Virus record (IMG/VR): IMGVR_UViG_3300027983_002388
Reading direction: 5' to 3' (one strand)
Source: a virus
Lineage: Duplodnaviria > Caudoviricetes
Length of the DNA stretch: 64,000 nucleotides
The position numbers and the translations under genes are program-made. Below the pieces are notes generated by a model. It saw nothing but the letters and a program-made list of their open reading frames with translations. It was not told the DNA's origin and did not search any database. Positions 93-63,276 of the stretch are shown in pieces (within the stretch, counting starts at the first letter, position 1; each line of letters starts with the position of its first letter).

Positions 93-758
93 ATGTATGA
101 AGTATTCGTTCGTGAATCACACGGAGAGTGTCTAGGTTTAATCGTGTTGCTACCGGGTCGTGGACAGCCTGCAAAGGACATCCTGACCCGGTATCATCGC
201 TATTCGACATTAGATCAATTCACATTGGTGGCTGTAGAGCCAGTCGATGAATGGTATCCTGCGCCAAATGGCGCAGAAGATCAAATGGAAGCGGTATGGG
301 GGCTGAGGCTATCTGTGCCTCAGATGGATGGGTTCATTGCTGAACTTGAAGAAGAATTTGAAGTGGATAGGTCCAATGTGACCTTGAGTGGTTTTTCAGC
401 CGGGGCTGTAATGGCAATTCAAATTGCGGCCCACACAGATAGACCATTCAACTCTGTGATTGCTCACAATGGAGCAATTCTGGCACCTGAAGAATTGCCA
501 GAGTCAATTCATCCAACTAAATATCTTGTTCTTCACAACGAAAATGACGATTGCTTTTCATGGGAAGAACGATATTTGCCTATGAAGAATGCACTAATGG
601 AACGAGGTTACGACTTAGAAGTGTTCGAGAACGAAGTCGGTGGTCACTATATCGCTCCAGAAGACGTTGAAGAAGTTGGCCTCTGGTTGAGAGAGCAATA
701 TGATTTACCTATGCCGGAAAAATCAACGGACTCTTTTTCTGAAGAGTCTCCCGAATAA
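93..758 (+). CDS. Alpha/beta hydrolase (phospholipase/carboxylesterase family)
   Basis: GFSAGA nucleophile elbow, LLPGRG oxyanion segment, C-terminal GGH catalytic His. Confidence 0.75.
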   Translation: MYEVFVRESHGECLGLIVLLPGRGQPAKDILTRYHRYSTLDQFTLVAVEPVDEWYPAPNGAEDQMEAVWGLRLSVPQMDGFIAELEEEFEVDRSNVTLSGFSAGAVMAIQIAAHTDRPFNSVIAHNGAILAPEELPESIHPTKYLVLHNENDDCFSWEERYLPMKNALMERGYDLEVFENEVGGHYIAPEDVEEVGLWLREQYDLPMPEKSTDSFSEESPE

Positions 759-1419
759 CTCGGCATGATTGCCTCAAGTCGAACTCTCGACACTTGTGAC
801 ACATCCACGACAACTTGTATTCTTGGAAGGCCCTCATTTCCAATAATAAACGCTTTTTGTGAATGAAGAATTCTTCTTTGCAACATTTGCATATCGTTTG
901 AGTGTATCCGTCTTTGGCTTGTTTGCCAATTTTATGTTTGGAATTATGCGATTCATAATATCGCAGTAATTCATCAGGCATATTTGGCACTATGAAATTA
1001 GAGCCAACCAGCCAGCCATATTTAGAACCATCTTTGTGCATTGACGGCGGCACAACAGATTGATGTTTGTGCGCACGGAATTCCATTCCGTTAAAGACCT
1101 TGCGAGTCAAAGAGGGATCGGGATTCAAAAAAATATGATGTGTTGACTTGGAGCTACGAAACTTAGGATGAGGCGTATATTCTGTCATCTGATGCAAAAG
1201 ATCATTCGCCTCTTCTGTATCTCCTTCAACGTCTACTACACTCCCAAGCAATATACCCATTTCGTAGGCGTTTTCAATTTCAAAGTATGGACGCCATTTT
1301 TCAGCGGTCCAGTTGCCATTCCAATTTAGTCCAACAGGGGCTTTCTTTGCTTTGAAAATCGCAATGGGCTGGAACCCGGCTTGAACGTAGAGTTCAAACC
1401 ATTCTGCTTTTGTTGGCAT
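709..1419 (-). CDS. Bifunctional DNA primase/polymerase (Prim-Pol) N-terminal domain with C-terminal Cys4 zinc ribbon
   Basis: GFQPIAI..KKAP start, GILLG..VVDVEGD acidic motif, H in KSTHHIF, CKCC..CHKC tail. Confidence 0.6.
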   Translation of the reverse strand: MPTKAEWFELYVQAGFQPIAIFKAKKAPVGLNWNGNWTAEKWRPYFEIENAYEMGILLGSVVDVEGDTEEANDLLHQMTEYTPHPKFRSSKSTHHIFLNPDPSLTRKVFNGMEFRAHKHQSVVPPSMHKDGSKYGWLVGSNFIVPNMPDELLRYYESHNSKHKIGKQAKDGYTQTICKCCKEEFFIHKKRLLLEMRAFQEYKLSWMCHKCREFDLRQSCRVIRETLQKKSPLIFPA

Positions 1420-1430
1420 GTGCGTCCTGC

Positions 1431-1589
1431 TTACGAGTGAGATGGATCACGAAGATACGCTTTTGTAGCTTCAATAATATTGTCAGTGGTGAGACTTTCA
1501 ATAACAATGCCCTGACGATGCGCCCACTCTACCACCTTGAGAATATTCTTCTCATTTGATTTGTTGAGCCAGAAGTTTCGCAGTTTCAT
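1431..1589 (-). CDS. Small hypothetical protein
   Basis: ATG at 1589 fills the gap in front of the Prim-Pol gene. Confidence 0.4.
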   Translation of the reverse strand: MKLRNFWLNKSNEKNILKVVEWAHRQGIVIESLTTDNIIEATKAYLRDPSHS

Positions 1590-62005: not shown

Positions 62006-62323
62006 TTATTGATTTTGCATATCGGGCTTATCGGGCTTTTCCTGTCCGTCTCCACTGAGAACTCTTTCCAAAACGTCCCAGACGTTGTATGCTTTGAGCT
62101 TCTGAGGAGCGGTGCCACCAGCCGGTGCGCCAGGCATCCCTCCCATCGGTGGAGCGCCCATGCCCATTCCACCACCCATCGGTGGCATTCCACCCATTGG
62201 GGGAGCGCCGCCAGCAGGCAGTAATGCCCCAGGACCACTGATTCCACCAGCCCCGCCCGGTGGAGGCGGTGGTGGTGCAGCTTCGTTCAGTTTGAATTCG
62301 AGAAATTTCTTGAAGGTATTCAT
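62006..62323 (-). CDS. Pro/Gly/Met-rich protein with capsid-targeting-like N-terminus
   Basis: MNTFKKFLEFKLNE-AAPPPPPP. Confidence 0.7.
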   Translation of the reverse strand: MNTFKKFLEFKLNEAAPPPPPPGGAGGISGPGALLPAGGAPPMGGMPPMGGGMGMGAPPMGGMPGAPAGGTAPQKLKAYNVWDVLERVLSGDGQEKPDKPDMQNQ

Positions 62324-62463
62324 CACCTTATGTAGTGACGAAAATCGGAAATTTCCCAAAAGGATCGAACCTGAATCGTTTTTGACTCTCTAAGGTATCT
62401 GAAGCCAAGTCGCTGGAAGTCTCGGAACCGACAAGTGCGTTTTCAACTTTGTCGAGAAGTAAC

Positions 62464-62492
62464 TTTACAAGTGACAAAAGCCGTGGTATGAT
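62464..62492 (+). promoter_or_regulatory. Early sigma70-type promoter
   Basis: TTTACA-N17 (ending CGTGG)-TATGAT, with no long ORF downstream. Confidence 0.75.
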
Positions 62493-62498
62493 ACCAAC

Positions 62499-62816
62499 GT
62501 CCTGATCGGACAACGCTTCTTGTGAGTCTGGGCGTGTGGGGCTTGCCTCATTATCAGACGAGGGTGGGAGTCAACCTAATGACCGGGTTTTAATGTTTGC
62601 ACCAAAGCATAAGCAAGCGTCGGCTTCTATGGGTTGTCTGTGCCGTAATCAGACCACCCGGCTTCTATGGGTTGTCTGTGCCGTAATCAGACCACCCGGC
62701 TTCTATGGGTTGTCTGTGCCGTAATCAGACCACCCGGCTTCTATGGGTTGTCTGTGCCTCAATCAGACCACCCGCCTGCGAGTTGAATAAAATTTCAGAT
62801 TCCGTCTTGAAATTTT
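62499..62816 (+). ncRNA. Putative early structured non-coding RNA
   Basis: Promoter upstream; 12-bp closing stem 62513-62524 with 62608-62620; four pseudoknot-capable repeats; weak hairpin 62789-62816. Confidence 0.5.
62621..62772 (+). repeat. Four head-to-tail 38-bp repeats
   Basis: cggcttctatgggttgtctgtgccgtaatcagaccacc x3 plus a fourth copy with two substitutions. Confidence 0.95.
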
Positions 62817-62835
62817 GTTTCGAGACGACTACTAT
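62807..62835 (+). promoter_or_regulatory. Sigma70-type promoter for the leader/tRNA operon
   Basis: TTGAAA-N17-TACTAT. Confidence 0.55.
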
Positions 62836-62883
62836 AACAGACACAAGCGAACAAAACGTCCGCACAATCAATTGGAGTTCATC

Positions 62884-62964
62884 GTGAACACTTTATCCCT
62901 CAGTCTATCGCTCTCTTATTCCTTGCTATCATTTAGCAACGGAGAAGGCTGCGTCCTGACTTAA
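62884..62964 (+). CDS. 26-aa Leu/Ser-rich attenuator leader peptide MNTLSLSLSLSYSLLSFSNGEGCVLT
   Basis: SD GGAG 6 nt before GTG; codons 4-18 are 6 Leu, 7 Ser, 1 Tyr, 1 Phe. Confidence 0.7.
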   Translation: MNTLSLSLSLSYSLLSFSNGEGCVLT

Positions 62965-63037
62965 AGGGACAATTGTGGGGAAGAATAAACCCCCGGCAGC
63001 TTTCTCCAGAAATGGAAAAGCTGCCGGGGGTTTTTTT
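62915..63037 (+). promoter_or_regulatory. Transcription attenuator (protector, antiterminator, terminator)
   Basis: 1:2 = 62915-62927 with 62935-62948; 2:3 = 62941-62952 with 62996-63007; 3:4 = 62990-63030 stem, GAAA loop, T7. Confidence 0.72.
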
Positions 63038-63042
63038 AGTTT

Positions 63043-63132
63043 GGGAGTAAGGCGACTGCTGGTTGTGTCGCACCTGCCTGTAAAGCAGGGCCTACAAGGT
63101 AAACATCGCAGGTTCAATTCCTGCTGCTCCCA
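63043..63132 (+). tRNA. tRNA-Tyr (GUA), long variable arm, CCA not encoded
   Basis: GGGAGTA/TGCTCCC acceptor; CCTGC-CTGTAAA-GCAGG; GCAGG-TTCAATT-CCTGC. Confidence 0.92.
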
Positions 63133-63204
63133 CTGTGTACGTCAGATTTATTGTTGCGTCCTCACTCTTGTAGTGCGGAGGCAACTAATGAAAGAATAAC
63201 AAAC

Positions 63205-63276
63205 GGATCGGTAGCTGAGATGGAGTATCGCTGGCCTGAAAAGCCGGAGACGAGGATTCGAGCGACTCCCGATCCA
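63205..63276 (+). tRNA. tRNA-Phe (GAA), atypical or degenerate
   Basis: GGATCGG/CCGATCC acceptor; CTGGC-CTGAAAA-GCCGG; T stem GAGGA/GACTC has two mismatches; D stem has one. Confidence 0.7.

What the first reader, a model, noticed from the sequence alone, without database searches (positions are those of the whole stretch)
62464..62816. Early non-coding RNA with four 38-nt pseudoknot-capable units: possible type III antitoxin mimic or RNA decoy
Seen: a consensus early promoter points into a region with no credible ORF. The predicted transcript has a 5' domain closed by a 12-bp stem, then four tandem 38-nt units. Each unit parses exactly as an H-type pseudoknot: S1a CGGC, L1 UUCUAUG, S2a GGUUGUCUG, L2 U, S1b GCCG, L3 UAAU, S2b CAGACCACC (S2 has one mismatch). 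Copy 4 weakens S1. Established: type III antitoxins are arrays of about 35-36-nt pseudoknots (ToxI 36 nt, AbiQ antitoxin 35 nt), and phage phiTE escapes ToxIN by expanding pseudo-ToxI repeats. Inference: an expandable RNA anti-defence decoy. Alternatives are a protein sponge or a Racr-like repeat mimic. The units lack an obvious A-rich cleavage linker.
Basis: partly seen in the sequence, partly recalled or inferred. Interest (0 to 1): 0.8.

Follow-up and report, generated by a model that had tools for sequence, protein, structure and literature searches.

The report
Expandable pseudoknot RNA heading phage tRNAs
A huge freshwater phage has, behind a conserved promoter in front of its tRNA genes, an undescribed non-coding RNA built from repeated knot-like folds; in this strain the last fold has multiplied from one copy to about four, which suggests a dose-tunable decoy whose target is still unknown.

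Summary
A 38-nt unit is repeated about four times (62621-62772) behind a conserved sigma-70-type promoter. No ORF is credible and no Rfam family matches.

Seven diverged relatives carry the same RNA, always with one unit. Their compensatory changes support both stems of the proposed H-type pseudoknot, and a coordinated third change fits a major-groove base triple.

The 12-bp closing stem is not conserved.

The expansion is real. Public unitigs from two studies break at the repeat with 2.3x and 1.3-1.6x flank depth. Assemblies with identical flanks show 4, 2 or 1 units.

The RNA lies between a promoter and a large tRNA array. A 75% relative keeps both promoters and the array but lacks the RNA, so it is accessory.

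Best reading (about 0.4): a multivalent, dose-tunable protein-binding decoy. The type III antitoxin mimic version has no direct support. There is no known antitoxin match, no A-rich cut site and no toxin gene nearby. A relaxed unit pattern also found no look-alike in 185,579 prokaryote species. The function was not tested.

The parts
62464..62492 (+). Promoter P1: TTTACA, 17-nt spacer, TATGAT with an upstream TG. The transcript probably starts near 62499.
   Evidence: Consensus scan, 10 of 12 matches plus TG. Conserved at the same position in all relatives, including L058 and L059.
62499..62511 (+). 5' terminal hairpin (GUCC / GGAC). Absent in L053 and L057.
   Evidence: Fold and alignment.
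62513..62559 (+). PK-A, an older diverged pseudoknot module. S1 is ACGC/GCGU and S2 is GUCUG/CAGAC. L1 begins UUCUU. In this lineage a 16-nt hairpin is inserted in L3.
   Evidence: S1 pair 2-24 is C-G here and G-C in L049/L050 (compensatory). The pair between L2 and the end of L3 is A-U, U-A or G.U.
62562..62583 (+). PK-M, a short diverged pseudoknot module. S1 is GGGU/ACCU and S2 is GUC/GAC.
   Evidence: The S1 pair is U-A in five variants and C-G in L049/L050 (compensatory).
62596..62617 (+). Hairpin P4. The stem is UUUGC/GCAAG and the 12-nt loop (NCCRAAGYAYAA) is conserved.
   Evidence: The stem is replaced by CCCUU/AAGGG-type pairs in L049, L050, L053 and L057 while the loop is kept.
62621..62734 (+). 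PK-B copies 1-3, three identical 38-nt H-type pseudoknot units. S1 is positions 1-4 with 22-25. S2 is positions 11-20 with 30-39 and has a conserved U15.C35 mismatch.
   Evidence: Repeat detection. Covariation: four pairs with compensatory change, 99.1% of cells paired, 0 of 500 shuffles reach this.
62735..62772 (+). PK-B copy 4, the terminal unit, with GU changed to UC at 62759-62760. This leaves a C1.U25 mismatch in S1.
   Evidence: The same terminal variant is present in L069 and L070.
62773..62806 (+). Spacer between the array and the second promoter. No intrinsic-terminator-like site lies on the + strand here.
   Evidence: and the sequence.
62807..63037 (+). Context: second promoter (62807-62835), a 26-codon Ser/Leu/Tyr/Phe-rich leader ORF (62884-62964), and a strong hairpin followed by a T7 run (about 62988-63037).
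   Evidence: Conserved in relatives with an in-frame 3-nt indel, and present in L059, which lacks the RNA.
63043..63133 (+). Context: tRNA-Tyr(GTA), the first gene of the tRNA array.
   Evidence: ARAGORN and Rfam.

Best explanation
This is a previously undescribed, accessory non-coding RNA of a roughly 460-kb freshwater phage lineage.

Promoter P1 transcribes a string of compact H-type pseudoknot modules: PK-A, PK-M, hairpin P4 and PK-B. All the pseudoknot modules appear to have arisen by repeated duplication of one ancestral unit. In this strain the last module has recently expanded by slippage from one copy to about four.

In PK-A and PK-B the pyrimidine L1 (U-C-U) would lie in the major groove of S2, over A-G-A.

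Shown here: the promoter is conserved, the folds covary, the RNA is present or absent among relatives, and the unit number varies.

Inferred: the modules are repeated binding sites for one protein, probably a host RNA-binding defence factor or nuclease. The RNA would act in trans as a multivalent decoy, and its capacity would be set by the number of units. Release from the primary transcript would come from RNase P cutting at the following tRNA, where one is present.
For: Structure:
- In PK-B, S2 has three compensatory pairs and S1 has one, G2-C24 to A2-U24 in L058. Overall 99.1% of cells are paired and 0 of 500 shuffles reach that.
- The S1 stems of PK-A and PK-M each have their own compensatory change.
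- Across seven full-length RNAs 98.9% of cells are paired, against 43% or less when partners are slid.
- G.U pairs place the structure on the + strand.
- In L058, C7 becomes U together with C18-G32 becoming U18-A32. This fits a C.G-C to U.A-U triple swap.

Modular origin: PK-A, PK-M and PK-B share the GUC..GAC stem, an NGCC-type loop and a UCU-type L1.

Accessory nature:
- L058 keeps only the promoter plus PK-B in front of a tRNA.
- L059/L060 keep P1, P2, the leader and the tRNA array but have no RNA.

Dose variation:
- Relatives and a Logan contig with near-identical flanks have 1 unit.
- L069 has 2 units and L070 and the window have 4, all with identical flanks.
- Unitig depth gives a mean of about 3.3-3.6 in two studies five years apart.

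Precedents for RNA-gene amplification as phage escape: PhiTE pseudo-ToxI (PMC3475682) and tRNA-Tyr amplification against Septu (PMC13096335).
Against: - No transcript, partner protein or phenotype has been shown.
- The RNA always sits between a promoter and tRNA genes, which also fits a cis-acting leader.
- Only one lineage carries the expansion, and its terminal copy has a weakened S1, so the extra copies could be neutral.
- The 2-copy assembly may be a collapsed repeat.
- The family was detected only in a narrow clade, so there are few independent covariation events. Several rest on single sequences (L058, L057, L053).
Confidence: 0.4

Rival explanations
1. It is a cis-acting 5' leader of the tRNA operon transcript. 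The pseudoknots would protect the 5' end, guide processing, or make RNA polymerase resistant to termination across a long untranslated tRNA array. On this view the extra copies are neutral.
For: In every variant the RNA lies directly behind P1 and upstream of tRNA genes. In L058 the unit ends 5 nt before a tRNA. In L049, L050, L053 and L057 a tRNA-Met follows it. No terminator-like site separates the array from P2 and the leader.
Against: L059/L060 run the same two promoters, leader and tRNA array without the RNA. Three diverged modules, each keeping its own pseudoknot, plus a fresh expansion are not expected for a one-per-transcript element. There is no resemblance to put, boxA or other Rfam antitermination elements.
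Confidence: 0.25
2. It is a type III antitoxin mimic. The units would imitate the repeats of a host ToxI-, CptI-, TenpI- or antiQ-like antitoxin and neutralise the cognate endoribonuclease. The expansion would have been selected as it was in PhiTE.
For: The unit length of 38 nt is in the range of known antitoxins. The pseudoknot fold is supported. The units are arranged head to tail. The change from 1 to about 4 copies is like the PhiTE change from 1.5 to 4.5-5.5 repeats.
Against: No Rfam family matches. No A-rich cut site is present. A relaxed pattern for the unit finds nothing in 185,579 species genomes. PK-A and PK-M differ in sequence from PK-B. The single unit is conserved with compensatory changes across a clade, so it has a function of its own rather than being a chance look-alike. 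No ToxN gene was found in the relatives' records (a weak negative).
Confidence: 0.1
3. The units are tandem small-molecule aptamers, that is, triplex H-type pseudoknots like SAM-II or preQ1-II. They would sense a metabolite and tune read-through into the leader and tRNA array.
For: The fold is a compact H-type pseudoknot with a likely major-groove triple and conserved loop nucleotides. It sits in a 5' position. Tandem aptamers are known (own knowledge).
Against: There is no expression platform. In L058 a tRNA follows after 5 nt. No riboswitch family matches. The module sequences differ from one another.
Confidence: 0.07
4. The RNA is functional as a single unit, and the four-copy array is a neutral or slightly harmful slippage product, or is partly an assembly effect. 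On this view the array has no dose meaning.
For: Eleven other contigs have one unit. The copy number differs among assemblies with identical flanks. The terminal copy has a broken S1 pair. Depth ratios are below those expected for a uniform 4-copy array.
Against: The multi-copy form dominates in two studies, from different years and habitats, at a similar mean of about 3.3. PK-A and PK-M show that earlier duplications were kept and maintained by selection.
Confidence: 0.15

Closest known systems
PhiTE pseudo-ToxI (Blower et al. 2012, PMC3475682)
   Same: A phage-encoded non-coding RNA of about 36-38-nt pseudoknot units, whose copy number rises from about 1 to 4-5 by slippage.
   Different: Pseudo-ToxI is recognisably similar to the host ToxI and is not a complete foldable unit in the wild type. 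Here no host counterpart is known. The single unit is itself conserved and foldable, and it sits in a larger RNA with two older modules at the head of a tRNA array.
Type III antitoxin RNAs (ToxI, CptI, TenpI, antiQ)
   Same: Tandem units of 34-45 nt, each folding into a pseudoknot, some with triplex contacts.
   Different: Those lie directly upstream of their toxin gene, are near-identical repeats, and carry the toxin's A-rich cut site. None of this holds here, and no Rfam match was found.
Protein-sponge sRNAs (CsrB/CsrC, RsmY/RsmZ) (own knowledge)
   Same: Many repeated small structured sites on one RNA. Their number sets the titration capacity, and they arose by duplication.
   Different: Those sites are GGA hairpin loops bound by CsrA/RsmA. 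Here the sites are pseudoknots without a conserved GGA. The one GGA, in L053, is half of a compensatory pair.
Triplex H-type pseudoknots (SAM-II, SAM-V, preQ1-II aptamers; telomerase RNA) (own knowledge)
   Same: A pyrimidine L1 lies in the major groove of S2. There is candidate covariation from C.G-C to U.A-U.
   Different: There is no sequence or covariance-model match and no expression platform. S1 is only 4 bp and S2 is up to 10 bp.
Amplification of RNA genes in phage tRNA clusters as escape (SegB/tRNA-Tyr against Septu, PMC13096335)
   Same: Copy-number gain of an RNA gene in or next to a phage tRNA cluster, which raises the RNA dose.
   Different: That case is a homing-endonuclease-driven amplification of a kilobase segment containing a tRNA. 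Here a 38-nt unit has expanded, most simply by slippage.
T4 stable RNAs C and D in the tRNA cluster; HK022 put RNA (own knowledge)
   Same: Small structured phage RNAs encoded with the tRNAs (C and D), or lying just behind a promoter (put).
   Different: There is no sequence or structural similarity. The function of C and D is unknown, and put is a two-hairpin cis-acting antiterminator.

Membership tests
Type III toxin-antitoxin antitoxin RNA | Tandem direct repeats of about 34-45 nt | tested here: met
   38 nt x 4.1 copies in the window. All relatives have one unit.
Type III toxin-antitoxin antitoxin RNA | Each unit folds into a pseudoknot | tested here: met
   Compensatory changes in S1 and S2. 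99.1% of cells are paired and 0 of 500 shuffles reach that.
Type III toxin-antitoxin antitoxin RNA | Endoribonuclease toxin gene (ToxN/AbiQ/CptN/TenpN) directly downstream, behind a terminator | tested here: not met
   Downstream are a promoter, a 26-codon ORF, a terminator and tRNAs. No PF13958 match in two relatives' records, although the control genomes also gave no signal.
Type III toxin-antitoxin antitoxin RNA | Match to a described antitoxin RNA family | tested here: not met
   No Rfam 15 match at E<=10 in the window or at E<=5 in L053 and L058.
Type III toxin-antitoxin antitoxin RNA | A-rich toxin cleavage site once per unit | tested here: not met
   No AAAU or other A-run in the unit. 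The only A-containing loop is YAAU. A toxin with a different specificity cannot be excluded.
Phage antitoxin mimic of the PhiTE pseudo-ToxI kind | Phage-encoded repeat whose number differs between close relatives | tested here: met
   1, 2 and 4 units with identical or near-identical flanks, and a depth-based mean of 3.3-3.6.
Phage antitoxin mimic of the PhiTE pseudo-ToxI kind | Clear similarity to a host-encoded antitoxin array | tested here: not met
   A relaxed 28-nt pattern (21 fixed bases) found 0 hits in 185,579 species genomes. An exact pattern would miss a counterpart with several more differences, and the host is unknown.
Phage antitoxin mimic of the PhiTE pseudo-ToxI kind | Suppresses the cognate toxin or abortive infection | not testable with these tools
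   Needs co-expression or infection assays.
Racr-type CRISPR repeat mimic | Similarity to a CRISPR repeat of the host | tested here: inconclusive
   No genome hit to the unit pattern, but only one pattern was scanned and the host is unknown.
Riboswitch aptamer (SAM-II/V, preQ1 classes and others) | Match to a curated aptamer model, and an expression platform | tested here: not met
   No Rfam match. In L058 a tRNA begins 5 nt after the unit.
CsrB/RsmZ-type sponge | Repeated GGA motifs in hairpin loops | tested here: not met
   The loops read NGCYGYAAU. GGA occurs only in L053, as part of a compensatory stem pair.
Processive antitermination RNA (put-like) or operon leader | Required in cis directly behind the promoter of the operon it serves | tested here: inconclusive
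   The position fits. However, L059/L060 have the same promoters and tRNA array without the RNA.

The most novel reading that the evidence does not exclude
Huge phages carry an evolvable, multivalent triplex-pseudoknot RNA that disarms an as yet unknown host RNA-binding immunity factor, possibly a new toxin family with an RNA antitoxin. Natural populations have been caught in the act of tuning its dose by repeat expansion, with 1, 2 and about 4 units in otherwise identical genomes. Two much older rounds of the same process are preserved as PK-A and PK-M.
Probability: 0.25. Interest if true: 0.85.

Novelty: new variant of a known kind. Interest (0 to 1): 0.62.

Why it matters
Very few RNA-based phage counter-defences are known: pseudo-ToxI, Racr and amplified tRNAs. 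This locus offers a new, covariation-supported RNA fold that is absent from Rfam. It has a natural series of 0, 1, 2 and about 4 units in closely related phages, and it sits in the translation-support region of a roughly 460-kb phage.

If it is a decoy, it points to an unknown host factor and gives a ready-made bait to fish it out. If it is instead a cis-acting leader, it would be a new kind of element governing expression of large phage tRNA arrays.

Either way the module is small (38 nt), well defined and testable. The two older modules also show how repeat RNAs can grow and then diverge.

Tried and rejected
1. Rfam 15, both at gathering scores and at permissive E-values, on the window and on two relatives. 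Only tRNAs matched.
2. Phage nucleotide database, distant mode. No match.
3. T-box idea, from the AGGGUGG motif. Rejected, because the U is C in L049/L050 and it covaries as a PK-M stem pair.
4. ThrRS-operator or tRNA-Tyr anticodon-loop mimicry, from the CGU/GUA in the PK-B loop. Rejected, because position 26 is C in four variants.
5. CsrA sponge. There is no conserved GGA.
6. rRNA-piece mimicry, prompted by earlier notes on this genome. No rRNA model hit in the local search and only a 7-mer resemblance, so it was dropped.
7. Coding reading from the AUG in L1. There is no Shine-Dalgarno sequence, the frame changes with each 38-nt unit, downstream ends differ, and substitutions are mixed synonymous and non-synonymous.
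8. DNA iteron or origin reading. Rejected, because G.U pairs, compensatory changes and the promoter all point to an RNA on the + strand.
9. The 12-bp closing stem of the 5' domain. It is not conserved.
10. The unit hairpin on its own is not more stable than shuffles, z = -0.16. The support comes from covariation, not from energy.
11. Covariance model of the unit. It found nothing in 53 other loci or in four whole records of more distant big phages.
12. Metatranscriptome run X12 holds 0.23 of the sampled words of 62495-62800 and none outside it.
13. ToxN family search in the relatives' records. Nothing was found, but the control genomes gave no signal either.

Full report
**What is in the window**

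Tandem Repeats Finder reports a 38-nt unit repeated 4.1 times at 62621-62774, with 98% matches and score 294. The 27-nt core occurs four times in the window and never in 100 shuffles. Copies 1-3 are identical. Copy 4 differs at unit positions 25-26 (62759-62760).

A sigma-70-type promoter, TTTACA-17-TATGAT with an upstream TG, lies at 62464-62492 and points into the region. Only short, unconserved ORFs overlap it.

Downstream come several context features:
- a second promoter (62807-62835)
- a 26-codon ORF rich in Ser, Leu, Tyr and Phe
- a strong hairpin followed by a T7 run (about 62988-63037)
- tRNA-Tyr (63043-63133) and a second tRNA

The neighbouring genes are SbcCD, ribonucleotide reductase, CTP synthase, DUF4326 and an AlkB-like oxygenase, so this is a large phage. 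A near-identical relative of 223 kb is rated 46% complete, and the longest contig carrying the identical DUF4326 protein is 462,616 bp. The genome is therefore about 460 kb. No Rfam 15 family matches the stretch, even at E<=10.

**Relatives**

Two IMG/VR contigs share the whole block from promoter to terminator at about 96% identity but have only one unit.

Using the neighbouring DUF4326 protein as an anchor, I fetched contigs of relatives with 75-90% protein identity. A profile search found the RNA in L049, L050/L051, L053 and L057. It also found a minimal form in L058.

A relaxed pattern for the unit found four more metagenome contigs. It found nothing in the representative genomes of 185,579 prokaryote species. 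Every instance outside the window's own strain has exactly one unit. A covariance model of the unit found nothing in 53 further loci or in four whole records of more distant big phages. As far as could be detected, the family is confined to one clade.

**The pseudoknot is real**

It gave:
- 99.1% of cells paired
- four pairs with compensatory double changes
- 0 of 500 shuffles reaching these values
- slid controls at 47% or less

The compensatory changes are:
- S2 pair 13-37: G-C, A-U in L053, G.U in L057
- S2 pair 14-36: U-A, C-G in L057
- S2 pair 18-32: C-G, U-A in L058
- S1, the pseudoknot stem: G2-C24 becomes A2-U24 in L058

The positions flanking S1b (21 and 26) vary freely. The U15.C35 mismatch is invariant.

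In L058 the switch of pair 18-32 to U-A comes together with C7 to U in L1. L1 therefore reads U-U-U over A-A-A instead of U-C-U over A-G-A. This is what a major-groove C.G-C to U.A-U triple swap would look like. It rests on one sequence, so I treat it as a lead.

The hairpin alone is no more stable than shuffled sequence, z = -0.16. The case rests on covariation, not on energy.

**The 5' domain is made of older copies of the same module**

Comparing all GUCUG...CAGAC hairpins and parsing each relative shows three elements in the 5' domain.

- **PK-A (62513-62559).** It has the same plan as the unit: a 4-nt S1a, an L1 beginning UUCUU, the GUCUG/CAGAC stem, and a loop starting GC. Its S1 is ACGC/GCGU in five variants and AGGC or GGGC with GCCU in L050 and L049. 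That is a compensatory C-G to G-C change.
- **PK-M (62562-62583).** It is a shortened version with a GUC/GAC stem. Its S1 is GGGU/ACCU or GGGC/GCCU, which is again compensatory.
- **P4 (62596-62617).** This hairpin keeps a 12-nt loop while its stem changes from UUUGC/GCAAG to CCCUU/AAGGG-type pairs.

On seven full-length RNAs the combined structure pairs 98.9% of cells, against 43% or less for slid partners. G.U pairs in several helices place the structure on the + strand.

The RNA is therefore a string of pseudoknot modules produced by repeated duplication. Two rounds are old. One is recent and specific to this strain.

**The expansion is real and variable**

Logan unitigs (k = 31) of run X1 (freshwater 2017, flank depth about 367) and run X4 (estuary 2022, flank depth about 18) both break at the repeat. 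The results were:
- A 62-nt unitig of 32 words has 2.3x the flank depth in both runs.
- A 36-nt unitig of 6 words has 1.6x the flank depth in X1 and 1.3x in X4.

For an array of n-1 identical units plus the variant terminal unit, these two word classes occur n-1 and n-2 times. The data therefore give a mean n of about 3.3-3.6. They exclude a single or double copy as the main form.

Other assemblies differ:
- Run X5 holds a contig joining 62645 to 62760, which is one unit, with otherwise near-identical flanks.
- JGI contig L070 has four units and ENA contig L069 has two. Both have flanks 100% identical to the window.

The two-unit assembly may be a collapsed repeat, and the depth figures are rough. 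Taken together, though, the array is not an assembly loop, and its length probably varies in nature.

**Context and dispensability**

In all variants the RNA follows P1 and precedes tRNA genes. Depending on the variant, what follows is a tRNA-Met, or P2 with the leader ORF and terminator, and then an array of Tyr, Ser, Leu and Phe tRNAs.

L058 has only the promoter, PK-B and, 5 nt later, a tRNA. This suggests that RNase P cutting could release a pseudoknot RNA of about 45 nt.

L059/L060 are relatives at 75% DUF4326 identity. They have P1, then about 40 nt, then P2, the leader ORF, the terminator and the tRNA array, with no pseudoknot RNA at all. The RNA is therefore an accessory insert between two promoters and not a required part of the operon.

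**What it most likely does**

*Shown:* a conserved promoter, three independently maintained pseudoknot modules, presence or absence among relatives, and variation in unit number.

*Inferred:* the modules are repeated binding sites for a protein. The RNA would act in trans as a multivalent decoy whose capacity is set by unit number. I put this at about 0.4. Two precedents show that raising the dose of a phage RNA gene by amplification can defeat host defence: PhiTE pseudo-ToxI, which went from 1.5 to 4.5-5.5 repeats (PMC3475682), and tRNA-Tyr amplification against Septu (PMC13096335).

*Rival readings:*
- A cis-acting leader of the tRNA operon, about 0.25. The position fits, but the L059 arrangement and the modular duplications weaken it.
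- The specific type III antitoxin mimic, about 0.1. It has no direct support. There is no family match, no A-rich site, no toxin gene nearby, no host look-alike, and the modules differ in sequence.
- A ligand-sensing aptamer, about 0.07.
- The extra copies are simply neutral, about 0.15.

**Novelty**

I found no description of this RNA in Rfam 15 or in the literature searches I ran. It is closest in behaviour to pseudo-ToxI and to sponge RNAs, but it fails the membership tests for type III antitoxins. I rate it a new variant of a known kind, namely phage repeat-expanding structured RNA. It would count as categorically new only if the partner turns out to be a new class of host factor.

Earlier notes of this scan had flagged the same stretch and the neighbouring leader ORF on this genome. 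No look-alike on other genomes had been noted.

Noticed in passing
window 62807-63043; L059 5200-5400 (-): A second promoter, a Shine-Dalgarno sequence, a 26-codon ORF rich in Ser, Leu, Tyr and Phe, and a strong terminator lie directly before an array of Tyr, Ser, Leu and Phe tRNAs. The ORF is kept in relatives with an in-frame 3-nt indel. The 75% relative L059 has a 26-codon counterpart (MNAMFSFSLL...). It looks like a leader-peptide attenuator. A hairpin inside the ORF also shows a compensatory change (UUGCUA/UAGCAA versus UCGCUA/UAGCGA).
   Followed up: partly
window 62405-62463; L050 3716-4471 (-); L053 1614-2363 (-): In relatives P1 sits at the 3' end of a roughly 250-aa gene with a weak class II aminoacyl-tRNA synthetase core hit (PF00587). 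The window keeps only a short remnant of that gene's end, so the gene has been deleted here. In L001, L002 and L058 a different ORF ends at the promoter.
   Followed up: partly
L049 about 620-790 (-); L053 about 1330-1475 (-): An extra conserved segment of about 100 nt lies between PK-B and tRNA-Met in L049 and L053. It is absent in L050 and L057. ARAGORN calls an overlapping tRNA-Gly in L053. It may be another small structured RNA or a degenerate tRNA.
   Followed up: no
window 63205-63276; L058 3931-4003 (-): Rfam finds a tRNA here that ARAGORN does not call in the window. Its homologue in L058 is called tRNA-Phe with the unusual anticodon AAA.
   Followed up: no
window 62006-62359 (-): A 117-aa protein whose middle is almost entirely Gly, Pro, Met and Ala repeats, with no Pfam or PHROG match. 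It is divergent from P1 and conserved in the close relatives.
   Followed up: no
L055 125-3221: A relative at 85% DUF4326 identity has an IS200/IS605 pair (a TnpB-like OrfB and a Y1 transposase) and no tRNA array or pseudoknot RNA within 6 kb upstream of DUF4326.
   Followed up: no
window 62422-62467 (run X1, minor contig): A low-depth contig (4.9x against 369x) in run X1 shares only the promoter region and then diverges on both sides. A second, rarer relative with a different arrangement therefore coexists in the same sample.
   Followed up: no
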